A DNA stretch of 64,000 nt from an uncultured bacterium (GCA_902793555.1 CADBEF010000008.1:420-64419), one strand, 5' to 3'. Counted from the stretch's first letter, positions 9,966-37,512 are shown. Notes: generated by a model from the sequence alone, not told the origin. Translations and numbers: made by a program.

Positions 9966-10014
9966 TAATGCTGTCTTCAGGATGAATTCCGACCATCTGC
10001 CCCCACCCGCACCG

Positions 10015-11045: not shown

Positions 11046-11064
11046 CGCCATTTCCATCCCGACC

Positions 11065-21027: not shown

Positions 21028-21057
21028 TTGACACGCGCGCGCGAAGTTTGGTAGTTT
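21028..21057 (+). promoter_or_regulatory. Sigma70-like promoter TTGACA-18-TAGTTT, followed by a conserved ~80-nt leader and AAGGAG RBS
   Basis: cttgacacgcgcgcgcgaagtttggtagttt. A paralogous copy sits at 32219-32248. Confidence 0.45.
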
Positions 21058-21138
21058 TATCCCCGAAGGGGCGCCCCGGAAGGGACGAACCTCTTTTTAA
21101 AGGCCCGACAATCACACGATTGATACAAGGAGATTCCC

Positions 21139-24100
21139 ATGAAACTGCGATTTCTCCCCGCCGTCGCGATCCTCCTGTCCCTCCTCGCGCCCGCCGCGCG
21201 GGCGGAGGAAGTCACCCTCCCCGCCGGCTACGTGCCCGTCAACCTTGTCACGAACGTCGGCGGCTCCGCCTCCAGCGACACCAAATGCCTGAACAACAAC
21301 AGCTCGTATGGCGTCTCGAGGGCGTTCGACAAGAAATACTACTCCGACGACACGCGTTGGATCGGGCATGGTTCGACCTTTCCGCAGCACGCCGTCTGGA
21401 CCTTCCCGGACCCGACGATCGTGGACACGGTTCGCATCTACAACGCGAGCTACGACGGCGCCAAGCAGTCGCCATCCGATTTCACGATCGCCGGCTCGAA
21501 CGACGGATCGGACTGGACGACGCTCGACACGGAGTCCGGCGTGACGGGCTGGTCGGCCAATAAGTTCCGGACGTTCCAGTTCGTCAACCGAACGCCGTAC
21601 CTGAAGTATCGACTGGAGGTCACGGACGTGCAGGGCCACAGCCGCATGTCGATTTCGGAGATCGAACTGTACCGGGTCAACCAGGCGTCCTTCGACGTCG
21701 TTCCCAGCGGTTCGCCGGCAGTCGGCATCGATTCCTTCTCGACGGACTGGATCCTGGCCGTGGAAGAAGGTTCGACGGCGGACGCGGGGCTCGTCTGGAG
21801 CACGGACGACTCGTTCGCCACGGCCACGACGAATTCGCTCGGCACGGGTCTCGCGGCAGGCACGCGCACGGCGTCGCTCGCCGATCTCGAACCCGCCACG
21901 ACCTACTGGTGGAAGATCTACGCCGACAACGGGACGGACGTCGCCGAATCGACCATCGGTTCGTTCACCACGACCGGTTCGCCCCTGTTCGGCGCCGTGT
22001 CCGCCGCGTCGGACGGAAACGCCGCGTCCTTCTCCGTCGCGCTCGCCGAAGCGGCGCTCGGAAACACGCTCTCCACGTCCGTCTCCGTCCTCTACGGAAC
22101 GGACGGAGAAACCTGGACGGCGCTCCCCCTCGGTTCGTCCGCGACGCCGGCTGCGATGTCGGGAACGCTGGAGAACCTCGACTGGGGCACGACCTACCAG
22201 TGGTTCGCCCTCGCGACGGCGACCATGGAGGGCGGCCGCGTTCTCTCGACCTCGACCTCGACCAATTCCTTCACGACGCTCTGGGATGGCGACCTGTACG
22301 TCTCGAACGGCAACGCGAGCGCCGAGGCCCCGTACTCGACCTGGGCGACCGCGGCGCCGGACATCGCGACGGCGATCTCCCTCGCCACGGACGGCGCGAC
22401 GATCCACGTCGCGCCGGGACGCTACAAGATTTCGACGTCCCTTTCGCTGGCGAAGGCGGTCCGCATCGTCGGCAACGACGCCGATCCGTCCCGCGTCGTC
22501 GTGTCGAACACCGGGGATGTCAGCTATTCCGAACAGAACCACCGGTGCATCCGGATCGACCATGCCGGCGCCGTCGTTTCCGGCCTCGCGTTCGAGAACG
22601 GGAAGGTCTACGGGCAGGGCGGCAACGTCCTGATCGGCTCGAACGGCGGCATGGTCACCAATTGCATCCTCTCCGGCGGTTACGCCCGGAGCGGCACGTC
22701 TTCCGCCGGCGCGAACGTGTCGATCCAGGGCCCCGGACGGGTGACGCACTGCACGATCCTCGGCGGCTGGCAGAACAACTGCACCGGCTGCACGAAAACC
22801 TCCTCCGCCCACGTCGGACACGCGGACGCCCGCATGGAGAACTGCCTCGTCGACGGGTTCCGAGGGTCGGACGTCTCCTCGCAGGCCACAAAGAACGCCT
22901 GCGGAATCTACGTGGAAAAGGGCGTCGCCGCCAACTGCACGGTCGTGAACTGCACGTCGCCGTACACGGAGGCTTCCGGCTTCGCGGGCATCCTGATTCC
23001 GACGAACGACGGCCTGGCGCTGAACTGCGTGTCGGTCGCCAACGCGGACAGCAACGACACCGTCCGCGCGTTCGTTCCGTCGCAGGTTTCCCGGACCTCG
23101 CACTGCGCGTTCGACGCGATCGCCGGCGAGGCGGCCGTTCCGGAGGGCATGGCCGGCGCCGTCGTCGGGACGCCCGAATCGTTCTTCCCGCGTTTCGCGG
23201 ACGACGCCATCGCCGCCATCAAGTACCGACCGGGCCCCTCGAGCCCGCTCCTCGACGCGGGCGAGGACTACGCCCCGATGGCGGCCTTCGACCTCTCCGG
23301 GCAGCAGCCGCGCCGGGTCGGCGCTTCCGTCGACATCGGCTGCTACGAGGACGGGTATCTCGCCATCGAGGCGACGGGCGAGCCGACGGTCGGCCTCGAG
23401 TCGTTCGCGACGGACTTCGTCCTCGGGACGGACGTCCCCGCGGACGTCTGGATCGTCTGGAGCGCGGACGCGTCGTTCGCGGCCGCCTCGACGAACCGGG
23501 TCGCGGAAGGCGCCACGAACGGCGTCCACGAGGCGGCGGTCGGCGGACTCGCGACGGACACGGCCTACTGGTGGAAGCTCGTGGCGACCAACGGCGTCTT
23601 CGCGGTCGAGACCGCGCCGGCGTCGTTCCGGACGCTCGGCGCGCCGGTGATCGGCACCTTGTCCGAAGCCGTCTCCGGCCCGACCGTGACGTTCTCGGTC
23701 GACCTGGCGTCCGTCGCGCGCGACGCGCTCGGAAACGGCATCCGGACGTACGTCACCGTCTTCTGCTCGACGAACGGGACGGACTGGATCGAGCAGTCGC
23801 TCGGCTCCGCGATCCGGGCTCGGACGGTTCTCGGCGCCGCGACCCTTCCCAACGGGGTCTGGACGTGGTACGCCCGCGCCTCCGCCGAGTCCGGCGGACG
23901 GACGTTCGCGGCGGAAAGCGGGACGCGGACGTTCCGCGTCTTCCACAACGCGACGCCGCCGGCCGGCTTCCGCCGCGTCGACGTTGAGATCGCGTACGAC
24001 GGCGAGCCCGCCGAGGACATCCCCGTGCTGCTGCGCCTCTCCGAGGCGATCGAGGGCTTCCGCTACGCGGACGTCGCCAACGACGGCAGGGACTTCCTCT

Positions 24101-26730
24101 TCTCGGACGGCGACGGCAACCGCCTCCCCTTCGAGATCGACACGTGGAACCCGGAGGGCGAATCGCTCGTCTGGGTCCGGCTGCCCGTCTTCGCCGACGG
24201 CGCGACGATCCACCTCGACTACGGCGCCTCGGACGCCGACGGCACCGCGGACGCCGCGGACGTCTGGCGGCGCTATGTCGCCGTCTGGCACATGAACGAA
24301 ATCCGCACGGACGCCGCCACGGGCAGACGCTACACCCCCGACTCCTCCGCGAGCGGCTGGCACGCCTACAAGTCCGTCGAGGCGGATGCCGTGCCCGCGC
24401 CCGTCACCGTCGCGGCCGGCGCCACCGCGCAGCCGACGCCCCCGACCGGCAGGGCGATGAACGTCGCCTTCGGCGCGGGGAAGTCGGATACGTCCGTCGG
24501 CGGCTTCGCGGTCCCCGCGAGCCAGACCGCCTCCACGACGCTGAACGGCCCCGGTTTCACGCTTTCGGCCTTCGTCAACTCGCATCAGGCCGCGAACAAC
24601 GGCCGCTGCCGCGTCATCGCGTTCGGAAACGCCTACAACGACAAGGCAAATCTCGCGGTCGGCAGCGACAGGATCTACAGCATGGGATCCAACAGCCACA
24701 ACAAGACCAATCCGAAGGGCGCGACGGGCTGGGTCCACGCGGCGGCCGTCTTCGGTTCGCCGCGGTCGAAGATCTACGCCGACGGCGTCTGCCTTTCCGG
24801 CAACAACGACGGCAATCCCGACCTCGCGAGTCTCGCGCTCGACAAAGGCATCGGACTCGGCTGCTTCACGGACGGCACGCAAAGCCTCGACGGCTACATC
24901 GACGAGGCGCGCATCCGCAACGCCGCCTCGACCGCTTCGTGGGCCGCCGCCGAGTACGCCGCGATGGCGGACCCGGACGTCGTCCGCTTCGGCGGGGCGC
25001 GCTACCTCGAGATGCCGGTCCTCGAAGCGCCGCCTTCCCTGGCCTGGTACCGGAACGGGTTCGTCCACTCCGCCACCGTCGCCTACGGGCGCGGCGACGT
25101 GCTCCTCGCGACGGTCGACCTGTACGACGGTTCCGCGACCACGAACGCGGCGCACTCGTTCGATTCGGCCGCCTCGCTGCCGCAGGCGCTATCGGAGAAC
25201 GTCGAACTCCCGGAGAACCGGATGTACCGGGGCGTCGCGATTCTGCGCTCGCCGGACGGCTCGGAGGAAGATCTCGCGGCCGCCCGCGAGACGGTCTACT
25301 CCGGATCGATTTCCGTCACGTGGGTCCGGGACGCCGACATCGCGGCGATGACGCCCGCCATCGTCCGGCTTTCCCGCGCGGACACCGAGGCCGCGACCTG
25401 CGCGCCTCTCGAAGTGTCGTTCGCGCTTGCCGGCGAGGCGGTCTCGAAGGGCCTTGTCGAGCCCGTCGCGTCCGCGACGATTCCGGCCGGGGAAAGCTTC
25501 GTCGAGGTCGAGATCCGGCCGATCGCCCGGAGCGTCGTTCCCGGCGACTACCTCGCGACGCTGACGGTCGCGGGGACGAACGTCGCCCGTCCCGGCGCGC
25601 AGGTCGAGTTCGGCGTCCGCAACGCCGGCGCCGACCCCTACGTGCGCTACGTCGCCCCGAACGGCGACGACGGGAACGACGGCGCGCTCGCCACGACCCC
25701 CAAGCGGACCGTCGCCGCGGCCCTCGCCTCGTTCTCCGAGAACGCCCGGTCGGTGCTCTGCACGGTCCGCGTCGCCCCGGGCCTCTACCCGGTCTCCTCG
25801 CCGATCGTGCTCACGAACGCCGTCCGCATCATCGGCGACGACTCCGATCCGTCCCGCGTCGTCGTGTCGAACACGACGAACGTCGACTATTACAACCAAA
25901 ACCACCGGTGCATCCGGATCAACCATGCCGATGCCGTGGTTTCGGGAATGACGTTCGAGAACGGAAAAGACTACGGCAACGGCGGCAACCTCCGCATCGA
26001 CGCGAACGGAGGCATGGTCACCAACTGCATTCTGGTCAACGGTTACACGCGCGAAGGCAGCGATTCCGGCGGCGCGAACGTGGCGATCACGGGCCCCGGA
26101 CTCGTGACGCATTGCCGGATTCTCGGCGGCAGCCAGAACAACTGCAGCGGCTGCAAACGGGTGTCCTCGGTCTGTCTCGAGCATGCGGACGCCCGGATCG
26201 AGAACTGTCTCGTAAGCGGATTCCGGGGAGCGACGGTTTCCACCCAGCCAACCGTGGGATGCGCCGGAATCCTCGTCGACAAAGGAGCCGCGATCAACTG
26301 CATGGTCGTGGATTGCACGTCGCCCTACACGACGGCATCCGGCTTCGCGGGAATCCTGCTGTGGGCGAACGGTCGCGCCGTGGACTGCGTTTCGGTCGGC
26401 AACGTCGACAGCAACGGCACGGTCCGCGCGTTCATGGCGTCGCAGGCGACCCGCGCGATCAACTGCGCGTTCGACGCGATCGCCGGCGAGGCGGTCGTTC
26501 CGGAAGGCATGGTCGGCGCCGTCGTCGGCACGCCCGCGTCGTTCTTCCGCAACTACGCCCGCGGCGACTACCGCCCGCGCAGCGGCGGGCCGCTCGTGAA
26601 CGCCGGCGCGAACTACGAGCCGATGGCGGGCGTCGACCTCTCCGGCGTCCAGCCGCGCAAGGTCGGCTCCCGCGTCGACATCGGATGCTACGAAGCCTTC
26701 GCCGAAACTTCGATCCTGATCCTGAGATGA
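21139..26730 (+). CDS. Giant secreted multidomain protein (1863 aa): discoidin-like N-domain, Ig/FN3-like repeats, two right-handed beta-helix domains, DUF2341-like and LamG-like modules
   Basis: Signal peptide 'MKLRFLPAVAILLSLLAPAARA'. RBS AAGGAG 7 nt upstream of ATG. Beta-helix signature 'NQNHRCIRIDHAGAVVSG...GGMVTNCIL' occurs twice. Ends '...ETSILILR'. Confidence 0.85.
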   Translation: MKLRFLPAVAILLSLLAPAARAEEVTLPAGYVPVNLVTNVGGSASSDTKCLNNNSSYGVSRAFDKKYYSDDTRWIGHGSTFPQHAVWTFPDPTIVDTVRIYNASYDGAKQSPSDFTIAGSNDGSDWTTLDTESGVTGWSANKFRTFQFVNRTPYLKYRLEVTDVQGHSRMSISEIELYRVNQASFDVVPSGSPAVGIDSFSTDWILAVEEGSTADAGLVWSTDDSFATATTNSLGTGLAAGTRTASLADLEPATTYWWKIYADNGTDVAESTIGSFTTTGSPLFGAVSAASDGNAASFSVALAEAALGNTLSTSVSVLYGTDGETWTALPLGSSATPAAMSGTLENLDWGTTYQWFALATATMEGGRVLSTSTSTNSFTTLWDGDLYVSNGNASAEAPYSTWATAAPDIATAISLATDGATIHVAPGRYKISTSLSLAKAVRIVGNDADPSRVVVSNTGDVSYSEQNHRCIRIDHAGAVVSGLAFENGKVYGQGGNVLIGSNGGMVTNCILSGGYARSGTSSAGANVSIQGPGRVTHCTILGGWQNNCTGCTKTSSAHVGHADARMENCLVDGFRGSDVSSQATKNACGIYVEKGVAANCTVVNCTSPYTEASGFAGILIPTNDGLALNCVSVANADSNDTVRAFVPSQVSRTSHCAFDAIAGEAAVPEGMAGAVVGTPESFFPRFADDAIAAIKYRPGPSSPLLDAGEDYAPMAAFDLSGQQPRRVGASVDIGCYEDGYLAIEATGEPTVGLESFATDFVLGTDVPADVWIVWSADASFAAASTNRVAEGATNGVHEAAVGGLATDTAYWWKLVATNGVFAVETAPASFRTLGAPVIGTLSEAVSGPTVTFSVDLASVARDALGNGIRTYVTVFCSTNGTDWIEQSLGSAIRARTVLGAATLPNGVWTWYARASAESGGRTFAAESGTRTFRVFHNATPPAGFRRVDVEIAYDGEPAEDIPVLLRLSEAIEGFRYADVANDGRDFLFSDGDGNRLPFEIDTWNPEGESLVWVRLPVFADGATIHLDYGASDADGTADAADVWRRYVAVWHMNEIRTDAATGRRYTPDSSASGWHAYKSVEADAVPAPVTVAAGATAQPTPPTGRAMNVAFGAGKSDTSVGGFAVPASQTASTTLNGPGFTLSAFVNSHQAANNGRCRVIAFGNAYNDKANLAVGSDRIYSMGSNSHNKTNPKGATGWVHAAAVFGSPRSKIYADGVCLSGNNDGNPDLASLALDKGIGLGCFTDGTQSLDGYIDEARIRNAASTASWAAAEYAAMADPDVVRFGGARYLEMPVLEAPPSLAWYRNGFVHSATVAYGRGDVLLATVDLYDGSATTNAAHSFDSAASLPQALSENVELPENRMYRGVAILRSPDGSEEDLAAARETVYSGSISVTWVRDADIAAMTPAIVRLSRADTEAATCAPLEVSFALAGEAVSKGLVEPVASATIPAGESFVEVEIRPIARSVVPGDYLATLTVAGTNVARPGAQVEFGVRNAGADPYVRYVAPNGDDGNDGALATTPKRTVAAALASFSENARSVLCTVRVAPGLYPVSSPIVLTNAVRIIGDDSDPSRVVVSNTTNVDYYNQNHRCIRINHADAVVSGMTFENGKDYGNGGNLRIDANGGMVTNCILVNGYTREGSDSGGANVAITGPGLVTHCRILGGSQNNCSGCKRVSSVCLEHADARIENCLVSGFRGATVSTQPTVGCAGILVDKGAAINCMVVDCTSPYTTASGFAGILLWANGRAVDCVSVGNVDSNGTVRAFMASQATRAINCAFDAIAGEAVVPEGMVGAVVGTPASFFRNYARGDYRPRSGGPLVNAGANYEPMAGVDLSGVQPRKVGSRVDIGCYEAFAETSILILR

Positions 26731-27869
26731 AAACGCCTGTCCTTTCCGCCGACTTTCCCGGCGGCAACGTCCGCGTCCTCGGCATCGAGGGCGACACCGT
26801 CCACCTCGCGCCCGATCTGCGCGAGACGCAGCGCTTCTGGTTCTTCTGGCGCTTCCGCGCGACGTTCCCGGCCGCGGGGACATGGCGCTTCGAGTTCCCG
26901 GACGGCAATTGCGTCGGGACGCGCGGGCCCGCCGTGCGTCGAGCTGGCGAGCGTGCCTGGCGCTGGCTCTCCGGCGACGCGCTCCACGAGTCCGACCGCG
27001 TCTTCGAGTGGACGTCCGCCGGGACGGAGACGGTCGAGTTCTGCCAGTGCATCCCGTACCAGGGCGCGGACTTCGACGCGTTCGCCGCGTCCTTCGCGGG
27101 CGACCCGCGCGTCACGGTCGCCGAGCTCTGCCGCTCGCGCGCCGGGCGGTCCGTCCCGCTGCTCCGCCTGCGCGAAGGCGAGCCGGCGCAGGCGGTGCTC
27201 TTCACCTGCCGGCACCACGCGCAGGAGTCGATGGCGTCCTTCGCGCTCGAGGGACTGCTCCGCGCGCTCGCGTCGGACGAACCGTGGGCGGCGGCGTTCC
27301 GGGGCGCGTTCGAGGTCCTCGCGGTGCCGTTCGTAGACCGCGACGGCGTCGAGGACGGCACGCAGGGCAAGTTCCGCCTCCCGCACGACCACAACCGCGA
27401 CTACGGCGCGGCGGGCGGGCACCTCTACCCCGAGTGCGCGGCGCTCGAACGGCTCCTCGACGAGCGGCGGCCCGCCGCCGTGCTCGACCTGCACTGCCCC
27501 TACATCCGCGGCGGCGAGACGAACGAGCACGCCTACCTCGTCGGCATCCAGGCGGAGCGCCTGCGGCCCGCGCAGGCCGCCTTCGGCGCGCTGCTCGAGA
27601 GGCGCTGCCCGCCCGAGTCGCCCTACTTCGCCGCGGACACGCTCCCCTTCGGCGCGCTGTGGAACCAGCCGACCGACTTCTCCGGCGGCTCCGGCATGGG
27701 CTTCTCGCGCTGGGCGGCGGCGAAGCCCTGGCCGCGCCTCGCGAGCGGCATCGAAATCCCCTTCGCGAACTTCCGCGAGAAGACCCAGACGCCGGACACA
27801 ATCCGCGCATTCGGCCGCGGCATCGCCGCCGCCCTCGCCGAGTTTCTCGCTACGCCCGCAAGGGGTTGA
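26727..27869 (+). CDS. M14-like zinc hydrolase (carboxypeptidase / AstE-AspA-like fold)
   Basis: 'CRHHAQESMAS' (HxxE zinc motif), 'HDHNRDY', 'LDLHCPYIRGGE'. Start overlaps the giant gene stop (ATGA). No signal peptide. Confidence 0.65.
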   Translation: MKTPVLSADFPGGNVRVLGIEGDTVHLAPDLRETQRFWFFWRFRATFPAAGTWRFEFPDGNCVGTRGPAVRRAGERAWRWLSGDALHESDRVFEWTSAGTETVEFCQCIPYQGADFDAFAASFAGDPRVTVAELCRSRAGRSVPLLRLREGEPAQAVLFTCRHHAQESMASFALEGLLRALASDEPWAAAFRGAFEVLAVPFVDRDGVEDGTQGKFRLPHDHNRDYGAAGGHLYPECAALERLLDERRPAAVLDLHCPYIRGGETNEHAYLVGIQAERLRPAQAAFGALLERRCPPESPYFAADTLPFGALWNQPTDFSGGSGMGFSRWAAAKPWPRLASGIEIPFANFREKTQTPDTIRAFGRGIAAALAEFLATPARG

Positions 27870-27937
27870 CACCACCCCGCCACGCCCCGGGTGGGGTCGC
27901 ATGGCACGGATTCAGCCAAGATTCGGCACGGAAACAA

Positions 27938-27966
27938 TTGCCGCGTGTGCGCGCGTTCGCTATAAT
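27938..27966 (+). promoter_or_regulatory. Sigma70-like promoter TTGCCG-17-TATAAT
   Basis: ttgccg cgtgtgcgcgcgttcgc tataat, ~105 nt upstream of ATG 28071. Confidence 0.5.
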
Positions 27967-28012
27967 CGGTTTCAAACTTGTGGCCCTTCCGCCCTCGTCC
28001 GGCCGTACGCCA

Positions 28013-28073
28013 GCCCAGACCATCCAGACCATACGACCATACGACCATACGACCATCTGACCATCCGACCATG
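28013..28073 (+). repeat. Leader repeat array: seven degenerate 8/9-bp units (cagaccatc cagaccata cgaccata cgaccata cgaccatc tgaccatc cgaccATG) ending in the start codon
   Basis: Preceded by the conserved module 'cggccgtacgccagcccaga', which recurs at 37465-37487. Confidence 0.9.
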
Positions 28074-31000
28074 AAACGCATCCTCCCGCTCCTCCTCGCC
28101 GCCGCGGCCCTGTCCGCCCGCGCCACGGTCCAAGGCACCGACTTCGAAAAGAAGATCGCCTTCACCCCCTCGTCCACCGCGCTCGCGAAGATCGGCGAAA
28201 CGGCTTGGGCGGACTTCCCCGTCCTCGTGCGGCTTCCGGCCGCCGTTTCGTCCCAGTTGCAGAGCGCGAATGGGACCGACCTTTACGTCGAGGATGAGAA
28301 CGAAGTTCCGCTTGCGTTCGAGGTCGAGTCGTTTGACCCGGCCGGCACGACGCTCGTCTGGGTCAAGGTGCCGTCGCTTTCGTCCGCAACGGTGCTCAAC
28401 GTTTTCTTTGGCGGTTCAGCGAACGCCGACAACGACCCGACCGCCGTCTGGTCGAACTACGTCGGCGTGTGGCACTTCCCCGGCTCGGCCGCCGGAACGA
28501 CGACCGTCGCCGACGCGACCGGACACTCGCTCGACGGCACGACGACGGGCACGATTTCGACCTACGCCGGCCCGTTCGGCGGCGACACTCTCCAATGCAC
28601 CGAGAAAATCAACGCGCCGGACTACGATTCGCTGCTCTCCAACGTCGCGCAGTTCAGCGTCTCCGGCTGGTTCAAGGCGCCGAACCAGAGCAACGCGTAC
28701 TTCACGTACGTCTCGAAGAAGGCTGACCTGGCCTGGAACGCCGACAAGGGCTGGTATCTTGAAATGTCCCAAAGCAAGACCAAGGCGAACCTGGTCCTGA
28801 CCGGCTCGAACAACTTCACCATTCCGGACGTTTCGGCGAACTGGAACTACTTCCACCTCGTTTCGGACGGTTCGACGGTGAAGGTCTACATGAACGGCTC
28901 CACGAGCGCATCCAAATCGGTATCCTACAAGGTCAAGGCGAGCAGCAAGGTCTTCCTGATCTGCGGCAAGGACGGCTGCTCCGACGAATACCGCGTCCGC
29001 GCCGGCGCTGCGAGCGCGGCGGAGACCGCGCTCGAATACGCGACGATGGCCGATGCGGCGTTCTTCGACGCCGGCGCGATCGAGTCCGTGGATGCAACGG
29101 CGCAGGTCTTCGAGACGCCGACCGCCGTGCGCAACGCGAACGGCTCGACTACGGTCACGGTCGTCCTCTCCGCCTACAATGGCGACGTGGGCGTGATCTA
29201 CGAGGGCGGCGAGACGCCCGTCACGAACATCGTCGCGAACGCCGCCACGCCCGGCACCTACACGGACACGCCGGCGAATCTGGCGGCGGACACGACCTAC
29301 GCATTCTCCGCCTACGGAAAGAACGCGAACGACACCGAGGTCGTCAAAGCGGGCAACATCTTCTACAACGGCGACCTCTCCGTCACGACGGTCTCGGACG
29401 CGAACGAAAGCGGACTCGTCCCCGGCGTCTTCCGCATCTCGCGCGCCGATTCGGCGCACAACCTTACAGTGACCTACACTGTCGGTGGAACCGCCGTTGC
29501 GGACCAGTCCTACGTCGCGCTTTCCGGCACGGCGACGATTCCGGCCGGCGCAACGTACGTGGACGTGACCGTGACGCCGCTCAACGACCCGACCGTCACG
29601 GAGAACGTGTCGGTTGCGCTTTCTCTTGCGTCCGGACTTTACGGCATCTCGGCATCTGCCGGCACGGCGACGATGACGATCGCGAACCTGAACGCCCCCG
29701 CCGGCTTCAACACGTGGGTCGCGTCCGCGGCAGGCCTTGCGTCCGTCAGCAACAACTGGTCCGCCGGCCACCCGCCGAACGCCTCCGAACACGCTCTCTT
29801 CGACGGTCGCTTTTCTTCGGCGAACTGCGAGTGGGACGCCGCCGCATCTGCAACGGTCGCCTCTTGGACGCAGACGAACGACTACGCCGGCGTGATCACG
29901 CTCAAGACGGTCTATCCCGGCAAGGGCGACTTCCAGTGCCTGACCGTGACAGGGCCGATGGCGGTCATGAGCGGCACCATCACCCACCCGCAGTCGCGGA
30001 CACAGGGCCAGAGTGCGACGGATTACCTGCAGGACCTCCTCGACAACGAGACCTACCGCGTCCGCATCGACGCAGGGTCCCTCGTCATCGGACCGGACGG
30101 CCGGATCGACGCCCTCAACAAGGGCTACTACCATTCCAACACCGGCAGCCACACGTCGCCCGAGCCTTCCCACGGCGGACGTCTCTCCGCGTCCGGGCAG
30201 GCCCCCTACGACGACGTCAAGGAGCCGATCCACATCGGCATGCCCTACAAGCGGGATAGCGGCACCTACTATATCGGCATCGGCGGCGGCGCAATCTATC
30301 TCACGTCGACCGGCGCCATCGTCGTGAACGGCTACATCGGGGCCGACACGGGTTCCGACACGTGGAACCGCGGCTACACGCTCCGCGGCGGCGCGGCGGC
30401 GGGCTCCGTCTATGTCCGCGGCGCCTCCGTCACCGGCTCCGGCACGATCTCCGCAAGCGCGCTGAAGACGGACGAGCAGAAGTACCGCGGCGTGGGCGGT
30501 CGCGTCGCCGTCATCGCCACCTCTTCGACGCCGATCGACTACACGACACTCCAGCTCAAGGCAACGGTCTATCCGTTCAACAACAACAACGGGCAAAGCT
30601 CGACATACGGCGGGTGCGGCACGGTCTTCGTCAAGGACGGCACGATGACGAACGGCGTCCTCATCGTGCGGAATTTCGACCTGACCTTCGCCGAAGACGC
30701 ATCTGGACGCCGGACCGATGTCACGGCCGAAGGCGACTGGACCTTCGATCGGCTCGAGCTGGGAGGAGGGGTGCAGTTGTCCGTTCCCTACGGAACGACC
30801 CTCACGCTCCCCGGCTGGGACTGCGTGACGGCCCCGGCCAACAACACCGGCACCGGAACGCCATCCGGGTTCATCTACCGGGGCGGAACGCTCGACTTCG
30901 GCTCCGCCGCGGAAGTCATGTTCTCCGGCCACTGGTATTTCGCCCCGATTTCGAACTACGTCTTCAACGCGGACGTCTCGCTCGCGGACGGCGCCGCGAT

Positions 31001-32000
31001 CGGCTTCGGCGGGAAATACACGCAAAAGATCGCCAACAACGCTTATCCTGACAAGCTCGACAAGATCCAGTGCACCGTGAACGGCAATCTGACTATCCCG
31101 TACGGGTGCTCCGTCAATGTCAACCAGGCCGGCGCCATGCAGGACAGCCACGGCGTGCCCGCTGACTACCCGCAGGGGGCGCACGGCGGGCGCCGCTCGA
31201 ACACGATGAAGACGATCGGCTCGGCGTTCCATCCCCGGACCTTGCCGCACGGTCAGTCGAACAGCTACGGATGGATCATCCCGGGAGGGGCGGTCGAGCT
31301 CGTAGTCTCAGGGACACTGACCCTCGGCGGCACCATTGAATCGACCGCCTACACTGGGAACGACGGCACCAAGTCCGAGGTCGGCGGCGGATCGATTGAC
31401 ATCACGGCCGGGCGACTTGCGGGCGACGGCTCGATCAAGGCGGGGGCCGTCAAGGACGGCCAGCCGGGCGGCCGCATCGCCATCCATCTGACGGGCGTTG
31501 GTGCAACGTTTGATGATTTCGATGGAGCTGTCAACTGCGCCACGCTGGGAGCTGGCAGCATAGGTTCATGCGGTTCGATCTACATAGAGACTGCAGCAGA
31601 CGGCGATAGGCGCGGAACGGTCATCCTTGACGACAACAACGTGACCTGCACGACCTACACGCCCATCTGCGCGACGGGCTACGAAGCGGATGACGTCGCC
31701 GACTTCCGGCACGCGGATCTCGTCGTCCGGAACCAGGCCAAGGCGCAGGTGGCCGTCGCCGACGACAAAGGGACCTTCACGATGGACAACGTCGAAATCG
31801 ACGAAACCGGCGCGCTCGACCTGTTCGGGAACCGCTTCGTCGTCACGTCCGCGAGGATCGGCGGAAAGAACGTCCATACCGGCACCTACACGGCCGCGCA
31901 GCTCGCCGCGCTCGGCTTCCCGCAGGTCGTCGACACCGACGAGAACGCCGCCGGAACGCTCGTCATCCGCGGCGCGGCGACGGTGCTCATCGTGAAATAG
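28071..32000 (+). CDS. Giant secreted DUF2341/LamG-like protein (1309 aa) with a C-terminal beta-helix-like region
   Basis: Signal peptide 'MKRILPLLLAAAALSARA'. 'VWVKVPSLSSATVLNVFFGG...VGVWHF' DUF2341-like module. Ends '...GAATVLIVK'. Confidence 0.85.
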   Translation: MKRILPLLLAAAALSARATVQGTDFEKKIAFTPSSTALAKIGETAWADFPVLVRLPAAVSSQLQSANGTDLYVEDENEVPLAFEVESFDPAGTTLVWVKVPSLSSATVLNVFFGGSANADNDPTAVWSNYVGVWHFPGSAAGTTTVADATGHSLDGTTTGTISTYAGPFGGDTLQCTEKINAPDYDSLLSNVAQFSVSGWFKAPNQSNAYFTYVSKKADLAWNADKGWYLEMSQSKTKANLVLTGSNNFTIPDVSANWNYFHLVSDGSTVKVYMNGSTSASKSVSYKVKASSKVFLICGKDGCSDEYRVRAGAASAAETALEYATMADAAFFDAGAIESVDATAQVFETPTAVRNANGSTTVTVVLSAYNGDVGVIYEGGETPVTNIVANAATPGTYTDTPANLAADTTYAFSAYGKNANDTEVVKAGNIFYNGDLSVTTVSDANESGLVPGVFRISRADSAHNLTVTYTVGGTAVADQSYVALSGTATIPAGATYVDVTVTPLNDPTVTENVSVALSLASGLYGISASAGTATMTIANLNAPAGFNTWVASAAGLASVSNNWSAGHPPNASEHALFDGRFSSANCEWDAAASATVASWTQTNDYAGVITLKTVYPGKGDFQCLTVTGPMAVMSGTITHPQSRTQGQSATDYLQDLLDNETYRVRIDAGSLVIGPDGRIDALNKGYYHSNTGSHTSPEPSHGGRLSASGQAPYDDVKEPIHIGMPYKRDSGTYYIGIGGGAIYLTSTGAIVVNGYIGADTGSDTWNRGYTLRGGAAAGSVYVRGASVTGSGTISASALKTDEQKYRGVGGRVAVIATSSTPIDYTTLQLKATVYPFNNNNGQSSTYGGCGTVFVKDGTMTNGVLIVRNFDLTFAEDASGRRTDVTAEGDWTFDRLELGGGVQLSVPYGTTLTLPGWDCVTAPANNTGTGTPSGFIYRGGTLDFGSAAEVMFSGHWYFAPISNYVFNADVSLADGAAIGFGGKYTQKIANNAYPDKLDKIQCTVNGNLTIPYGCSVNVNQAGAMQDSHGVPADYPQGAHGGRRSNTMKTIGSAFHPRTLPHGQSNSYGWIIPGGAVELVVSGTLTLGGTIESTAYTGNDGTKSEVGGGSIDITAGRLAGDGSIKAGAVKDGQPGGRIAIHLTGVGATFDDFDGAVNCATLGAGSIGSCGSIYIETAADGDRRGTVILDDNNVTCTTYTPICATGYEADDVADFRHADLVVRNQAKAQVAVADDKGTFTMDNVEIDETGALDLFGNRFVVTSARIGGKNVHTGTYTAAQLAALGFPQVVDTDENAAGTLVIRGAATVLIVK

Positions 32001-32010
32001 CTTCCGTCTT

Positions 32011-32042
32011 CGCCCGGCGCCCGCGTCGGCTTCGGCCGGGCG
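32011..32042 (+). terminator. Hairpin cgcccggc-N16-gccgggcg downstream of the giant gene
   Basis: 8-bp perfect GC stem, 11 nt after the stop. Weak U-tract. Confidence 0.3.
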
Positions 32043-32218
32043 TCGCGGTTCCGTCCGAAGGAAGGACCGACATGGCAGAATCCTCGCAAGTGGCAGCCGC
32101 CGACCACGCGCGCCCCGGGCCCGACTGGCGCGCGGCGGGCGGCCTCTTCCATCTCTTCGAAGCGCTCTGGCGCGGATTCTGCCAGGGTTCGGCGCTGCCA
32201 GGCCTCCGTTTCGCGCGC

Positions 32219-32248
32219 TTGACACGCGCGCGGGGAGTTTGGTAGGTT
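32219..32248 (+). promoter_or_regulatory. Sigma70-like promoter TTGACA-18-TAGGTT (paralog of 21028-21057) plus a conserved leader and GGAG RBS
   Basis: cttgacacgcgcgcggggagtttggtaggtt. The ~110-nt leader is ~75% identical to the leader upstream of 21139. Confidence 0.45.
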
Positions 32249-32327
32249 TCGACCTGAAGGGACGCCCCATCCGGGCGGACCTGCTTTCAAAGCCCGTCAA
32301 TCACCCGGTTGACACGTGGAGATTCCC

Positions 32328-35300
32328 ATGAAACATCCGTTCGCTCTCGTTGCGGCCGCGCTTCTCGCGGGCGCGCTCGTTCTCCCCTCCGCGCGCGCGG
32401 CGGACGCGGACGCCACCGGCCTCGTGCCCACGATCTGGTGGGACTTCGAGACCAAGCCCAGCGCCTCGGGCCTCGCCACGGCGAACAAGGGCGCGACCTA
32501 CCAGGCGGGCGTCACGAACGGCTGGGCCGTTGACACGTCGAAGTTCACGCCGTATTCGCAGGCGAACGGCGCCTTCTCGACGGCCGGCGGCGCCTACACC
32601 GTGTCCCTCGTCATGAACCTCGGGACGACCAAGAACGGCATCACGCTGAACCTCCGCAATGAAACCGGCGAAAGGGACCTGATCGTCCGCCGCGGTTCGA
32701 CCGCGGGCTCGCTCGTCGTCGGCTGCGACGTCTGGAAGGTCGCCACAAGACACAATCTCACGACGACGTTCGAGGACGACTCGACCTACCATCTCGTCTC
32801 CGTCGTCGTGGAGGAGTCTGGCTTCTCGCTCTACGTGGACGGCGAGTTCGTCGGGTCCGAGACGGGCTTCACCCTGTGGACCGCCACGGGCCGCGCCAGC
32901 CGCCTCCAGTTCGGTGCGCACCTCAGCGGCATGCCCTCCGGCGAGGCGAAATACGGCGGCTGCATCGACGACCTGCGCATCCACGACGCGGCGCTCACGC
33001 CCGCGCAGATGAAGCTGATCGCCGCCGAATACGGCCTTGCCTCCATCGATGGCTTCATCGCCGTCGTCCCGTCCGGGGAACCGACGGTCGGAACGGATTC
33101 CTTCCGCGCGCCGTTCGCCCTGCGCGTGCCCGAGGGCGACGCGGCCGAGGCCGCGATCGTCTACGGCACGGACGCCGCGCTGTCGGCCCCGGCCACGAAC
33201 GTCGTCGGTTCGGCGCTGACGGCCGGCAACTACGAGGCGTTGCTTCCCAATCTCGTGTCTGGCACGACCTACTGGTGGAAGATCGTCGCGAGCAACGGCG
33301 TCAACCGGGCCGAGACGGACGTTGCGTCATTCCGCACGCTCGACGTGATCGTCCCGACGGACTACGCCAGGCGCATTCCCGCCGTCCTCTCCGGCTATGC
33401 CGGAACGGATACGCTCACGAATTTCCCCGTTCTCGTGAAGCTCGCGGCGGACGCGCCCATCGGCTTCGACTACGCCGACTGCGCGGAGGATGGCGCGGAC
33501 ATTCGCTTCGCGACTCCGGACGGCACGGTGCTGCCGCACGAGATCGACACGTGGAACACGAACGGCGAGTCGTTCGTCTGGGTGAAGATCCCGGCGATCT
33601 CCGGTACCGCTACGGCGTTCTCGATGTACTACGACGCGCCGGACCCGGCGGCGCTTCCGCCGGTCGATCCGCACGACGTCTGGACCGCGGCCGGGCACCG
33701 CGCCGTGTGGCACTTCGCGACAAACGCGACGGAATCCGCGCAGGGTCTGGTCGCCTCCACGGCCACCGGCACGCCGTCCTACGCGAACGACGGCGCCGTC
33801 GGCAAGTGCTGGCAGAGCGCGGGCGAGGCGTGGTTGCAGTACGCCAACGACGCCTCGTGGAGCGCACTCGGCGCGGGTTCGACGCTCACGATTTCCACCT
33901 GGGCCAAGTTCGACTCCACTTCCTATGGCTACAACCGCATCCTCTCCACGATGTCGACCTGGGAACAGCCGGCCGGCTACGAATTGACCGTCCAGGACGA
34001 CAAGAACGAGATCACCGTCGGATCGAGCGGGAAAAGCCAGTACCAGAAGGTCGTTTCGCCGGGCCCGTCGGACGAGATGGTCTACCTCACGGCCGTCTAC
34101 AACGCCGACCGCTACGCGGACCTCTACGTGAACGGCGTCCGGCAGGAGCACAAGCAGCTCAACGCGGTCGTGCAACCGACGGAGACGATGACGGTCGCCT
34201 GTTTGGCCGGCGGCGGCAACGTCTGGAACGGCTCCCTGGACGAGCTCCGCCTCCACGCGGCCGCCGAATCGGCCGACTGGGTCAAGGCCTGCTACGACAC
34301 GATGGCGACGCCGGCGTCGTTCGTCGCCCTCTCGCCGGCCGAGTCGACCGACCCCGACCTGCCGCGGTTCGGCGCGCTCTCCGCGTCCGATGCGAACGGC
34401 GTCGCAACCTTCACCGCTCCGCTCGCCGTGCCCGGCTACGGCGGCGAAGTCCCGACCTCCGTCTCGGTCTTCTACGGGACGGACGGCGAAACCTGGACGG
34501 AGCTTTCCCTCGGTTCGACGAACGAGGCCGCGACGCTGACCGTCTCGGCGTCCGGGTTCGCGGTCGGCGTCCGGTACCTCTGGTACGCCGTCGCCACCGC
34601 GACGAGCGGCGGCACGCCCAAGACGACGGTCTCCCAGCCGCAGTCGTTCGTCGCCAGGGCCTTCGATCCGACGGGGAACTACAAGTCCTTCACGGCGACC
34701 GTCGTCTGGGACGGCGCGCCCGCGGAGAACCTCCCGTTCCTGCTGCGCATCTCCGAGGGCGGCGTCAACGGCTTCGACTACGACGACGTCACGGCGTCCG
34801 GCCTCGAGATCCTCGACGCGGACGGACAGCTGCTTCCCTTCGAGATCGACACGTGGAACACGAACGGCGAATCGCTCGTCTGGGTCCTCCCGCCCGTCTA
34901 CGAGGACGGTGCGACGGTCACGGTCCGCTACGGCGCCCCGTTCGCCAACGCGCCGCTCCCCGCGACGAACGTCTGGACGGCCTATGTCGCCGTGTGGCAC
35001 ATGAACGAAATCCTCGTGGACGCCGAGTCCGGCAACCACTACACGCCCGATTCCACCGCGAGCGGCTGGCATGCCTTCAAGTCCGACGAGGCGGACGCCG
35101 TTCTGTCGCCTGTGACAACCGCGCCCGGCGCCTCCGCGCATCCGACGCCCCTCACCGGAACGGCGATGAACATCGCCTACGGCGCAGGGAAGTCGAGCTC
35201 GTCCCTCGGCGGCTTCCGCGTCCCGGCGGACCAAACCTCCTCGACCACGCTGGACGGCCCCGGCTTCACGCTCTCCGCCATCGTCAACTCGCAGCAGGCC

Positions 35301-37375
35301 GCCAACGACGGCCGCTGCCGCGTGATCGCCTTCGGAAACGAATACAACGACAGGGCCAACTTCGCGGTCGGCTCCGACAAGATCTACTGCATGGGATCCA
35401 ACTCCCACAACAAGACCAATCCGAAGGGCGCGACGGGCTGGGTCTACGCCGCGGACGTCTTCAACTCGCCGTATTCGAAGATCTACGCCGACGGCGTCTG
35501 CCTTTCCGCCAGCAACGAGGGCAACCCCAACCTCGCTAGCCTCACGCTCGACAAGGGCATCGGCCTCGGCTGCTTTACGGGCGGCAAACAGTGCCTCGAC
35601 GGCTACCTCGACGAGGCGCGCATCCGCAACGCGGCTTCGACCGCCGACTGGATCGCCGCCGAATACCACACGATGGCGGACGGCGCCGTCTCCTTCTCCT
35701 CCGTTTCGTCATCCGACACGTCCGTCCCCGTTCTCGGGACGCCGTCCGTCGCGCGCAACCCGGACGGCTCGTTCACCGTCTCGGTCGCCGTTTCCGAAAA
35801 CGACCCCGCGTCGATCGCCTGCATGATCGGAGGGACCGACTACGCGATGACGCCCGCGAACGCATCGCTCCCAACGACGTATTCCGCCACGGTTTCCGAT
35901 CTCGCGCCCGGCACCTACGTCGCGTCCGTCCATGCGACGGCGACGAGCGGAACGTCCGTTTCCTCGACCTGCCCGGACGCCTTCCACGCCGGAGCGCTGA
36001 CGATCGTAAAGATTTCCGACGCCGACGAAGGCACGCTCTCGCCCGGCGTCTTCCGTGTCTCGCGTGCGGACGCCGATTCCACGAGCCTGCCGGCGCTGAC
36101 GTTCGACGTGGCGTTCTCCGGCCCCGGGCTCGCCGGGATCGCCGATCCGGGGATTTCGGCCGCCACGATCCCCGCCGGCGCGGCGTATGTCGACATCGCC
36201 GTCACGCCCATTCCGAACGATGCCGTGAACGAGAATCTCGAACTCGTCCTGACCGTCTCGGGCGCGCACGTCGGCCAATCCTCCACCGCCTCGCTGACCG
36301 TCGTGAACTCGAGTTTCGACCTGGCGGTCCGCTACGTCGCCACGACCGGCAACGACGCCAACTCCGGCGGCACGCCCGAGTCTCCCAAGAAGACGATCGC
36401 CGCCGCCGTCGCCGCCCTCGGCCCCATCGCGCCGACGCGGACCTGCACCGTCCACGTCGCGCCGGGGCTGTACCCGATCACGTCGCCGATCGTCGTCACG
36501 AACGCGATTTCCGTCATCGGCGATGATTCGGACCCTTCGCGCGTTATCGTATCGAATACAGTGCCAAGTGGCAACGCAAGCCAGGAACATCGGGTGTTTA
36601 TCATTGCGAATGCCGACGCTCTTATAGCCAACCTGACGATGCAGAAGGGCGAAGCCTACAGCCGGAACGGGGGCAACTTCAACATCGGCACGGCTGGCGG
36701 CATGGTTTCCAATTGCGTGGTGGAAGCGGGCTATGCACGCGACAACGGAAAGGCGGCCGGTGCCTGGCTCGATGCGGGCGTCGTCACGCACACGGTCTTC
36801 CGGAAGAACTATTCGAGTGCCGGATCCGTCACCTGGGAGGGCGTTCGTGCGGGGCTTCTCCAGCTCAACGGCCAGGCCCGCGCCGAAAACTGCCTCTTCG
36901 TCCAGAACAACCAGACCGCATCCGTCCGGCTGATCAACGTGCACGGCTCCTCGGTCATGCGCAACTGCACGATCGCCGATTCGTCCCTTTCGAAGACGAA
37001 TGACGCCTGCACGACGTGGTGCGTACTCAACATCGCCTCCGGCGCGACCGTGCAGAATGTCGTGATCGCCGGCGTGACGAACACGATCGACGGCGCGACC
37101 TGCGCGATCACGGGGACCGTCGCGAACTTCCGGAACGGCGCGTTCGACGGCGACGCGACACGGCGGCTTCGTTCTTCCCGCACTACGCGAAGAACGTCCC
37201 CTACGCGATCAAGTACCAACCCAAGGCCGGCGGCCCGCTCTACGACAAGGGCGCCGACTACGCGCCGATGGCCGCGTTCGACCTCTCGGGGACGCAGAAG
37301 CGCAAGATCGCCTCGCATATCGACATCGGCTGCTACGAGGCGAACGGAGCTGCAACGGTGGTCATCGTGAAATGA
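32328..37375 (+). CDS. Giant secreted LamG/DUF2341/beta-helix protein, paralog of 21139-26730. Carries an apparent -1 frameshift near 37155-37170, so it is a possible pseudogene or a sequencing error
   Basis: Signal peptide 'MKHPFALVAAALLAGALVLPSARA'. Main frame runs to ~37160 ('...NGAFDGDAT'). The authentic C-terminus '...ASFFPHYAKNVPYAIKYQPKAGGPLYDKGADYAPMAAFDLSG...GCYEANGAATVVIVK' is in the -1 frame (ORF 37016-37375). Relative to the paralog, a ~45-nt, non-triplet deletion sits at this point. Confidence 0.6.
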
Positions 37376-37458
37376 ACCCCGTCCTTTCCGCGGACTTTCC
37401 CGGCGGCGGCGCGGTGGTGCTCGGCCCCGACGGCGCAACCGTCCGCCTCGCGAACCCA
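37372..37458 (+). pseudogene. Remnant of the M14-like gene 5' end (first ~29 codons: 'MNPVLSADFPGGGAVVLGPDGATVRLA'), fused in-frame to the downstream leader repeat and GH16 gene
   Basis: Nucleotide and protein homology to 26727-26815 ('MKTPVLSADFPGGNVRVLGIEGDTVHLA'). Homology ends at ~37458, where the 'cgtacgccag...gaccatcc' leader module begins. Confidence 0.6.
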
Positions 37459-37483
37459 ACGCCCATCGTTCGGTCGTACGCCA

Positions 37484-37512
37484 GTCCAGACCATCCGGAC
37501 CATCCGACCATG
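37484..37512 (+). repeat. Leader repeat (cagaccatc cggaccatc cgaccATG) ending in the GH16 start codon
   Basis: Same family as 28013-28073, with the same upstream 'cggtcgtacgccagtcca' module. Confidence 0.9.

What the first reader, a model, noticed from the sequence alone, without database searches (positions are those of the whole stretch)
21028..37375. Segmental paralogy of promoter, leader and giant gene with mosaic N-termini; copy B C-terminus frameshifted
Region 21028-26815 and region 32219-37458 share the promoter (TTGACA-18-TAG(T/G)TT), a ~80-nt conserved leader, the RBS and the C-terminal halves (DUF2341-like + LamG + beta-helix + YEA...IV(K/R) tail). The N-terminal domains are unrelated: discoidin-like versus LamG-like. 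This indicates domain shuffling behind a conserved expression cassette. Copy B carries a ~45-nt non-triplet deletion at ~37155, which puts the conserved C-terminus (ASFFPHYAKN...VVIVK) in the -1 frame.
Basis: seen in the sequence. Interest (0 to 1): 0.65.

Follow-up and report, generated by a model that had tools for sequence, protein, structure and literature searches.

The report
Shuffled giant surface-protein genes, one broken
Two neighbouring giant secreted-protein genes of an uncultured rumen/gut Kiritimatiellae bacterium share one promoter-plus-leader "expression cassette" and the same 3' junction but have re-assorted gene bodies, and one of them carries a recent 28-base deletion that cuts off its conserved tail; this is ordinary gene-family evolution with a few unexplained conserved signals.

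Summary
Regions 21023-26810 and 32214-37452 share a promoter-like site, a ~80-nt leader, GGAG-ATG, homologous C-terminal halves, the stop/ATGA junction and the first ~27 codons of the next gene. Their N-terminal halves differ.

- **Frameshift.** It is real in this sequence, but the lesion is a 28-nt deletion at 37158/37159, not ~45 nt. Two other public assemblies are 100.000% identical over the 21 kb upstream and carry an intact 1702-aa gene. About 60 orthologues read in one frame. The window's copy also has a 33-nt in-frame deletion at 32491/32492. It is a recently broken allele or a local assembly variant, not programmed frameshifting.
- **Gene A.** It is a fusion of a ~750-aa discoidin/beta-helix gene, which stands alone in related genomes, with a B-like module.
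- **Shared cassette.** The same promoter, leader and signal peptide (95-97% identical) drives at least three different gene bodies in other contigs. This supports "shuffling behind a conserved cassette".
- **Side findings.** All four giants in the window, and 95 of 120 homologues, end in four or more hydrophobic residues plus K/R (rarely Q). This may be an undescribed C-terminal sorting tag. Many neighbouring genes start after GACCATCCN tandem repeats.

Interest is moderate to low for the finding itself.

The parts
21028..21057 (+). Promoter-like site of gene A: TTGACA (21028-21033), 18-nt spacer, TGG-TAGTTT (-10 hexamer 21052-21057)
   Evidence: Sequence. Only two matches in the window, 0 expected. 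95-97% conserved in six other contigs. Not called by the simple sigma-70 scan.
21058..21138 (+). A-type 5' leader, about 80 nt. Possible hairpins at 21061-21071, 21072-21087 and 21109-21122; GGAG at 21129-21132
   Evidence: No Rfam family.
21139..23349 (+). Gene A, 'S' part (aa 1-737): signal peptide, F5/8 type C, FN3-like, beta-helix and choice-of-anchor Q. It is orthologous to a stand-alone ~750-aa gene in related genomes
   Evidence: Pfam and NCBIfam. About 76% aa identity to the L008/L010 proteins and 69% to L007.
23350..26730 (+). Gene A, 'X' part (aa 738-1863): B-like FN3/DUF2341/LamG/Ig module, a second beta-helix/CAQ domain and the tail ...AETSILILR*
   Evidence: blastp of A 805-1863 vs intact B 656-1702 gives 44%. 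A 1542-1863 vs the S C-terminus gives 71.5%. Mosaic identity profile.
23998..24972 (+). DUF2341/LamG cassette of A that is 80.9% nt identical to B 34710-35681
26727..27869 (+). M14-like carboxypeptidase gene. Its ATG overlaps A's stop codon (ATGA)
   Evidence: Sequence. Pfam Peptidase_M14, 22.5 bits.
28071..32000 (+). Giant gene C (DUF2341 and LamG), with its own promoter and a GACCAT-repeat leader. It ends ...GAATVLIVK*
32219..32248 (+). Promoter-like site of gene B: TTGACA, 18 nt, TGG-TAGGTT
32249..32327 (+). B-type leader, 78-80% identical to the A-type leader. Found only in this lineage
32328..37370 (+). Gene B as it reads in the window (1680 aa, product P0121). The last ~70 codons are out of frame
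32491..32492 (+). Site of a 33-nt in-frame deletion (loses SASLSFTSEGT) relative to L001/L002/L003 and all orthologues inspected
37158..37159 (+). Site of the 28-nt frameshifting deletion (loses GLPAGTVTG plus 1 nt)
37160..37375 (+). Conserved C-terminus of B (choice-of-anchor Q end and tail ...GAATVVIVK*), stranded in the -1 frame
   Evidence: tblastn. 100% identical to the intact allele. NCBIfam CAQ, 18.4 bits.
37372..37452 (+). 81-nt remnant of the 5' end of an M14-like gene (ATGA overlap with the intact B stop). This is the 3' edge of the duplicated segment
   Evidence: 85% identical to L010 3131-3211 and 78.7% to window 26736-26810. The two downstream proteins share only the first 27 aa.
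37485..38406 (+). GACCATCC repeat leader (37485-37511) and the GH16 gene, whose true start is probably ATG 37510
   Evidence: Orthologous arrangement in L016.
49190..54550 (-). Giant gene D (DUF2341 and LamG), with a different promoter. It ends ...PQATVLIVK*

Best explanation
The window comes from an uncultured, high-G+C rumen/gut Kiritimatiellae bacterium. It holds a glycan-utilisation neighbourhood (GH94, GH20, GH16, GH10, GH2, peptidase C10) with four giant Sec-secreted modular proteins.

Genes A and B are two units of one recombining family.
- The ancestral unit is [TTGACA/TGG-TAGTTT promoter, ~80-nt leader, signal peptide, body, beta-helix/choice-of-anchor-Q domain, hydrophobic tail, ATGA, M14-like gene].
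- In A, the 750-aa 'S' gene was fused in frame to a 5'-truncated B-like module (X). The fusion removed S's tail and stop.
- In B, a body of the widespread ~1700-aa 'B' orthologue group sits between S-locus-derived flanks. These are the promoter and leader up to ATGAAAC on the 5' side and an 81-nt M14-gene remnant on the 3' side.
- Cassette exchange among paralogues accounts for the patchwork identity: an 81% LamG block and a hypervariable beta-helix core.

The window's B allele has two derived deletions. The 28-nt deletion shifts the frame. The product then loses its last ~80 residues, including the end of the beta-helix/CAQ domain and the conserved C-terminal tail. It is most likely a non-functional or mis-localised product present in one strain or population.

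Shown: homology, breakpoints, the intact alleles and the recurrence of the cassette. Inferred: the direction and order of events, promoter activity, and the consequences for the protein.
For: - Paralogy and frame switch.
- Intact 1702-aa allele in L001/L002 and L003. Both are 100.000% identical to the window over 21,174 and 20,248 nt upstream. B differs only by the two deletions and 1-2 SNPs.
- The window's 1680-aa product clusters with two 1702-aa alleles.
- All 38 orthologue sequences read run in one frame through NGAFDGDxTGLPxGT...FF. In the 120-hit list, 95 end with the strict tail and only about 7 lack a tail-like end.
- S genes of 746-751 aa stand behind the same leader in L007, L008, L010 and L020. 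They align to A 1-737 and again to A 1542-1863.
- B+X fusions of 2770-2832 aa reuse the same X module.
- B orthologues elsewhere have other upstream and downstream contexts.
- The M14 remnant after B.
- L016 has GH20, the cassette, a 927-aa B-like gene and GH16 in that order. This is a compact version of the same hotspot.
- No slippery heptamer in 37080-37200.
- Beta-helix fold with pLDDT 86.
Against: - No reads are available, so the two deletions could be local assembly variants.
- L001 and L003 may derive from related or identical samples, so 'two independent assemblies' is not proven.
- The order of fusion and replacement events is inferred from a handful of contigs.
- Promoter activity, the transcription start site and any leader function are untested.
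- Third-codon identity in the first 200 codons is already about 0.92 for L008 and L010. Leader conservation there is not clearly above its neighbourhood.
Confidence: 0.75

Rival explanations
1. The 28-nt and 33-nt deletions are assembly artefacts of the contig the window was cut from, and the organism's B gene is intact.
For: Two other assemblies of essentially the same strain have the intact gene. Both lesions fall in one repetitive, paralogue-rich gene, where graph assemblers can take wrong paths. The sequence downstream of the deletion is 100% identical to the intact allele, so there is no decay.
Against: The rest of the contig shows zero differences over 21 kb, so the assembly is not generally error-prone. 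De Bruijn assemblers normally need reads that span a junction. The deletions have only 1-nt microhomology and no matching paralogous sequence that would explain a chimeric path.
Confidence: 0.2
2. B is expressed in full through programmed -1 ribosomal frameshifting near 37155.
For: The conserved C-terminus is in the -1 frame and is undamaged. The zero frame stays open for 70 more codons, to 37368.
Against: There is no X XXY YYZ heptamer in 37080-37200. The shift coincides exactly with a 28-nt deletion relative to an otherwise identical allele. All orthologues read encode the region in one frame. Long open wrong frames are expected at 70% G+C.
Confidence: 0.02
3. The shared promoter and leader is a functional cis-regulatory unit (an RNA structure or operator that co-regulates these genes) kept by selection, not just a passenger of duplication.
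For: - 95-97% identity over 114 nt, against third-codon identity of 0.71-0.73 (L007, L020) and 0.45 (L016, L024). Binomial P<1e-11.
- The core blocks survive in the diverged B copy.
- Three hairpins can form in all copies. All five one-sided changes are G.U-compatible.
- It is the only leader in the window with a GGAG Shine-Dalgarno. Neighbouring genes use ...CCGACCATG.
Against: - No compensatory double substitutions. The shuffle and slide controls are uninformative with 8 near-identical sequences.
- The fold z-score is 0.08 for A and -2.4 for B.
- No Rfam match above noise.
- For L008 and L010 the adjacent synonymous sites are almost as conserved.
- High identity next to an unrelated body could also reflect recent recombination that moved the cassette.
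Confidence: 0.4
4. The deletions are part of an on/off (contingency) switch for a variable surface protein.
For: B is the only polymorphic gene in 21+ kb between near-identical strains. The family is mosaic and hypervariable. Short tandem repeats with copy-number change exist nearby.
Against: The deleted segments are not repeats and are not flanked by repeats, so no reversible mechanism is evident. Only one frameshifted allele is known.
Confidence: 0.05

Closest known systems
Choice-of-anchor Q domain proteins (NCBIfam NF041518) and rhombotarget A (PDB 9cdv/9cdu)
   Same: The C-terminal module is a right-handed beta-helix ending in the ...R-x-x-DIG-x-YE motif. A 698-737 scores 36.6 bits, above the cut-off of 25. 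The best structural match of the modelled B C-terminus is rhombotarget A, with E=9.5e-7 and TM 0.54. From my own knowledge: in both families this domain sits immediately before a C-terminal sorting signal.
   Different: Here the domain is followed by 4-5 variable residues, 4-6 hydrophobic residues and K/R-COOH only. There is no GlyGly-CTERM, PEP-CTERM, LPXTG or T9SS domain. Sequence identity to rhombotarget A is 11-13%.
Pectate lyase family 9 (Pel9A, 1ru4) and CE8 pectin methylesterases
   Same: Parallel beta-helix fold (Foldseek E 1.6e-5 to 1e-4). Faint Pfam hits to Pel9A-like_beta_helix and Pect-lyase_RHGA_epim. The neighbourhood is glycan-degrading.
   Different: 10-16% identity. Catalytic residues were not examined. 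The central turns of the helix are hypervariable among orthologues, which fits a binding or antigenic surface better than a fixed active site.
PEP-CTERM/exosortase and other short C-terminal sorting signals
   Same: A lineage-restricted motif at the extreme C-terminus of many large secreted proteins, independent of the preceding domain.
   Different: No PEP motif, no membrane-spanning helix and no Arg cluster. The tail is too short to span a membrane. No NCBIfam model hits it. No candidate sortase was identified.
Recombining mosaic surface-protein gene families (cassette exchange among paralogues, as known for many bacterial adhesins; my own knowledge)
   Same: Patchwork identity, module fusions, shared 5' expression and signal-peptide cassette, and a strain-specific inactivated allele.
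   Different: No silent-cassette donor locus, invertase or repeat-mediated switch was found. Exchange seems to occur between expressed paralogues and between species.
RfaH ops / JUMPstart-type leaders of long operons
   Same: A conserved leader in front of very long genes. It contains GGTAG, the core of ops GGCGGTAGnnTG (my own knowledge of the consensus).
   Different: Only about 6-7 of 12 ops positions match (TTTGGTAGTTTT). The motif is better explained as TGG-TAGTTT, an extended -10 element 18 nt after TTGACA. The presence of a NusG paralogue was not tested.

Membership tests
Choice-of-anchor Q domain (NF041518) | HMM score at or above the curated cut-off (25 bits) | tested here: met
   A 698-737 scores 36.6 bits. 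The stranded B C-terminus scores 18.4 bits, below the cut-off, but it is 58% identical to A 678-737.
DUF2341 (PF10102) | Pfam gathering score of 23.4 | tested here: met
   A 27.9 bits, B 40.9, D 30.8. C scores 18.2, below the cut-off.
Laminin_G_3 (PF13385) | Pfam gathering score of 27.6 | tested here: met
   B 105.8 bits (3 stretches), C 28.5, D 54.2. A has no direct hit, but its block 1040-1290 is 70-87% identical to B's LamG region.
F5/8 type C (discoidin) domain | Pfam gathering score of 28.2 | tested here: met
   A 46-147 scores 36.1 bits. It is absent from B.
Right-handed parallel beta-helix (pectate-lyase-like) fold | Predicted or solved beta-helix with significant structural matches | tested here: met
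   AF2 pLDDT 86.3 and pTM 0.88. Foldseek hits to rhombotarget A, Pel9A and CE8 enzymes. Catalytic residues were not tested.
PEP-CTERM / GlyGly-CTERM / LPXTG / T9SS C-terminal sorting domains | Signature motif plus a transmembrane helix and basic cluster, or an ~80-aa CTD, recognised by NCBIfam or Pfam models | tested here: not met
   No such hit for A, B, C, D or the B tail ORF at E<=0.01. The tail is only about 10 residues.
Programmed -1 ribosomal frameshift site | Slippery X XXY YYZ heptamer at the shift, with the two-frame arrangement conserved in relatives | tested here: not met
   No heptamer in 37080-37200. Orthologues and near-identical alleles read in a single frame.
Sigma-70-type promoter | -35 and -10 hexamers with 16-18 nt spacing; experimental transcription start site | tested here: inconclusive
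   The -35 hexamer is 6/6, the spacer is 18 nt, and the -10 hexamer is 3/6 with a TGG extension. The element is conserved across contigs. The consensus scan did not report it. There are no transcription data.
Any Rfam cis-regulatory RNA family | Covariance-model score at or above the gathering threshold | tested here: not met
   0 hits at gathering threshold in the window. The best hit at E<=10 is Mu-gpT-DE, 12 bits against a threshold of 49, for both leaders.
Intrinsic terminator / attenuator in the leader | G+C-rich perfect stem followed directly by a T-run | tested here: not met
   The terminator scan finds none in either leader. Stem 21072-21087 has a C.A mismatch, and the T-run starts 5 nt after it.
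Structured RNA (generic) | Compensatory base-pair substitutions | tested here: inconclusive
   15 pairs, 0 double changes, 5 one-sided G.U-compatible changes, 8 near-identical sequences.

The most novel reading that the evidence does not exclude
Kiritimatiellae use a so-far undescribed, very short C-terminal tag of roughly G/A-x-T, then four to six hydrophobic residues, then K/R-COOH. It would sort or anchor their giant glycan-binding surface proteins. It occupies the position where choice-of-anchor domains normally meet a sorting signal.

The conserved promoter/leader/signal-peptide cassette would be a portable regulatory unit that recombination places in front of different bodies. On this reading, the broken B allele is a natural tail-less mutant.
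Probability: 0.25. Interest if true: 0.6.

Novelty: new member of a known kind. Interest (0 to 1): 0.38.

Why it matters
Kiritimatiellae are abundant, mostly uncultured degraders of complex glycans in rumen and gut. Their giant DUF2341/LamG/beta-helix proteins carry only generic or no names in the source databases, and a literature search for Kiritimatiell* plus DUF2341 returned nothing.

This locus shows how that repertoire diversifies. Modules are fused and swapped behind a fixed expression and secretion cassette, inside a GH20-to-GH16 hotspot. It also shows a strain-level loss allele.

The practical points are these:
- The frameshift should not be read as recoding.
- The 344-aa "GH16" ORF is over-extended by a gene remnant.
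- The conserved C-terminal tail and the repeat-type leaders are concrete, testable leads on protein sorting and translation initiation in this phylum.

Tried and rejected
- **Rfam.** The gathering-threshold scan of the whole window and the E<=10 scans of both leaders gave nothing above noise.
- **Covariation.** The test of three leader hairpins on 8 sequences had no power and found 0 compensatory changes. My first fold_alignment call used wrong coordinates for two loci and should be ignored.
- **Leader terminator or attenuator.** The scan does not support it.
- **RfaH-ops reading of GGTAG.** Rejected in favour of an extended -10 element.
- **Programmed -1 frameshift.** Rejected.
- **Source genome.** I tried to find it among GTDB representatives with the leader pattern. 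It is not there, and only three related species were hit.
- **Metagenome promoter scan.** It gave 4 true and 7 chance hits and no further B-type leader.
- **Look-ups that failed.** The window's own B product returned no place in the position index. P0027 had no DNA available.
- **Leaders in front of B orthologues.** L011, L013, L014 and L015 have different or no leaders.
- **Leader versus third codon positions.** My first comparison, against gene-wide third positions, overstated the case. The 5' CDS of L008 and L010 is itself about 92% identical at third positions. I corrected this.
- **Literature.** Searches for Kiritimatiell* with DUF2341 or 'sorting signal' found nothing relevant.


Full report
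**Setting.** The window is about 70% G+C. Real genes were picked by GC3. The region lies in a glycan-degradation neighbourhood:
- GH94 (25-3384), peptidase C10, GH20 (19412-20872);
- gene A (21139-26730, 1863 aa), an M14-like gene (26727-27869), gene C (28071-32000), gene B (32328-37370);
- GH16, GH10, GH2, and gene D on the other strand (49190-54550).

Related contigs are named Kiritimatiellae or 'Verrucomicrobia' MAGs from goat abomasum and rumen.

**Checking the observation.**
- blastn aligns 21023-21145 with 32214-32334 at 79.7% over 123 nt (E=6e-24). It also aligns 23998-24972 with 34710-35681 (80.9% over 984 nt) and 26583-26810 with 37228-37452 (71%).
- The 5' similarity begins just before TTGACA and ends at GGAGATTCCCATGAAAC. 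After that, the signal-peptide codons diverge.
- The promoter block and the hairpin block each occur only at these two places in the window. C and D have other promoters.
- Pfam finds F5/8 type C, DUF2341 and weak beta-helix hits in A. It finds three Laminin_G_3 stretches and DUF2341 in B. NCBIfam finds a choice-of-anchor Q (CAQ) domain inside A.
- tblastn places A's C-terminus, and also A's internal copy of the same domain, on B's main frame up to 37124 and on the -1 frame from 37160 to the stop at 37375.

The description is therefore accurate.

**What the frameshift is.** The GH16 protein downstream and protein A are both encoded on other public contigs. L001/L002 (ERZ27280399) and L003 (ERZ28613933) are 100.000% identical to the window over 21,174 and 20,248 nt, ending at 32492. 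In those contigs B is a 1702-aa gene. It ends ...GAATVVIVK* and its stop overlaps the next ATG.
- Within B, the window differs from them by a 33-nt in-frame deletion at 32491/2, one or two SNPs, and a 28-nt deletion at 37158/9.
- The 28-nt deletion removes GLPAGTVTG plus one base and causes the frame switch. Sequence after it is identical to the intact allele.
- The window's 1680-aa product is itself on record (NCBI and ENA, an 86-kb contig) in a 3-member cluster with the two 1702-aa alleles.
- A search with the intact protein found 226 relatives. All 38 sequences read carry NGAFDGDxTGLPxGT...FF in one frame, and most also carry the 11 residues lost at the 5' deletion.
- There is no slippery heptamer near the shift.

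Both deletions are therefore derived and very recent. Programmed recoding is excluded. I cannot distinguish a real strain allele from a local assembly variant without reads. The error-free 21 kb alongside argues against general sequencing noise.

**What A and B are.** A genome-collection scan for the leader found it in three other species (L007, L008, L010). There the gene behind it is only 746-751 aa and ends DIGCYEGNAAATVIIMK*.
- These 'S' proteins align to A 1-737 (69-76%). Their beta-helix/CAQ half aligns again to A 1542-1863 (71.5%).
- A is therefore S fused, at DIGCYE|DGYLAIEA, to a module X plus a second S-like beta-helix.
- The same X module (75-90% identical) is fused behind B-type proteins in 2770-2832-aa relatives (P0005, P0015, P0020, P0022, P0027). 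A-like fusions also exist in other MAGs (P0048, P0051).
- The identity profile is a patchwork. A's LamG cassette (1040-1290) matches B and the A-orthologues but not the other X modules. The beta-helix core (about 1580-1780) differs in every comparison.

**B's flanks are borrowed.** B orthologues in L011, L013, L014 and L015 follow other genes at 20-170 nt, with unrelated upstream sequence and other downstream genes.
- In the window, B has the A-like promoter and leader up to ATGAAAC.
- After its stop, it has an 81-nt copy of the start of the M14-like gene (85% to L010, 78.7% to the window's own). This is followed by a GACCAT-repeat leader and the GH16 coding sequence.
- The annotated 344-aa GH16 ORF is therefore probably over-extended. 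The likely start is ATG 37510, as in L016.

**The cassette recurs.** A metagenome scan added L016, L020 and L024.
- In L016 the order is: end of GH20, then the same promoter, leader and signal peptide, then a 927-aa DUF2341/LamG/beta-helix protein. That protein is 50% identical to B 812-1702 and has the tail GIVLVVK.
- It is followed by the GACCAT leader and the GH16 orthologue. This is a compact form of the window's GH20-to-GH16 interval.
- Promoter plus leader is 108-111 of 114 identical to A in all six contigs.
- Third-codon identity in the first 200 codons is 0.71-0.73 for L007 and L020 and about 0.45 for L016 and L024 (P<1e-11). It is 0.92 for L008 and L010, where the leader is not clearly better conserved than its surroundings.

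The cassette is thus kept, or moved, independently of the body.

**Does the leader do something?** Three hairpins can be drawn in every copy: 21061-21071, 21072-21087 and 21109-21122. The last lies just before GGAG.
- There are no compensatory changes. All five one-sided changes are G.U-compatible. With eight near-identical sequences the test has no power.
- Folding energy is unremarkable for A (z=0.08) and modest for B (z=-2.4).
- Rfam has nothing above noise. The terminator scan finds nothing.

I rate a specific regulatory role at about 0.4. It is plausible but not shown.

**The C-terminal tail.** A search of all six frames for four hydrophobic residues, then K/R, then a stop hits only the ends of A, B (-1 frame), C and D. 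That is 4 observed against 0.16 in shuffles.
- Of 120 homologues, 95 match the strict pattern, which also allows a terminal Q, and most of the others nearly do.
- The tail follows at least four unrelated preceding sequences...DIGCYE-xxxxx-...VTVTKKGNAG-...GTLVVRGAA- and ...ITGGRAG-.
- In an AlphaFold model of the intact B C-terminus (pLDDT 86.3, pTM 0.88) the beta-helix is confident, but the last nine residues have pLDDT below 50.
- The best structural neighbour is rhombotarget A, followed by Pel9A and pectin methylesterases. From my own knowledge, rhombotarget A is a GlyGly-CTERM sorted protein.
- No known sorting-signal model matches, and no literature was found.

An undescribed sorting or anchoring tag is possible, at about 0.25. 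If so, the window's B product would be mis-sorted.

**Verdict.** The finding is real and its interpretation is essentially right. The phenomenon is a recombining family of modular surface proteins with one broken allele, which is a known kind of genome evolution. It is novel only in that the family, its tail and its leaders are undescribed.

Noticed in passing
window 8115-8138, 11052-11066, 28018-28072, 37485-37511, 38417-38492, 39917-39974; also L014 ~2990-3080 and L016 ~3075-3110: Tandem 8-9-nt repeats (GACCATCCN, 3-8 copies) run straight into the start codon of many genes. CCGACCATG occurs 7 times in the window against 0.45 expected, and six of these are at + strand gene starts. These leaders have no Shine-Dalgarno. 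One 9-nt copy-number difference separates the window from L001 at 38424. The function is unknown; it could be a translation-initiation element or a contingency spacer.
   Followed up: partly
window 19356-19422, 10014-10054, 9788-9828, 49077-49135: Other heptamer arrays lie in intergenic leaders: GTGAAGA x9.6 just before the GH20 start, GCATTCA x5.9, GAGGGAC x5.9 and CGAAACC x8.7.
   Followed up: no
window 37372-37509: The 344-aa 'GH16' ORF called in public assemblies begins with an 81-nt remnant of an M14-like gene, followed by a translated GACCAT repeat (…SPDHPDHPTM…). The real GH16 start is probably ATG 37510, as in L016.
   Followed up: yes
window ~25870-26480 (A aa ~1580-1780) and the equivalent part of B; homologues P0001-P0058: The central turns of the C-terminal beta-helix are hypervariable (15-50% identity) between proteins that are otherwise 75-90% identical. 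Identical beta-helix 'alleles' also turn up in proteins that are otherwise distant; for example, P0038 shares B's helix at only 53% overall identity.
   Followed up: partly
window 32072-32245: A 57-codon ORF with a GGAAGGA ribosome-binding site lies between gene C's stop and B's promoter and runs into the -35 element (MAESSQVAAADHARPGPDW…). It is a possible gene remnant; I did not search for homologues.
   Followed up: no
window 20995-21010 and 32196-32209; L008, L010, L016, L020, L024: A second conserved block, GGCG(T/C)TGC(A/C)A(A/G)GCC, lies about 15-25 nt upstream of the -35 hexamer in A-type and B-type promoters. It could be an activator site or an UP-like element.
   Followed up: no
L016 1-3216: This compact locus reads GH20 end, A-type cassette, 927-aa B-like protein, GH16. 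It suggests that the window's 21028-37452 interval arose by expansion of a single-gene hotspot, or that L016 arose by collapse between the two cassette copies.
   Followed up: partly
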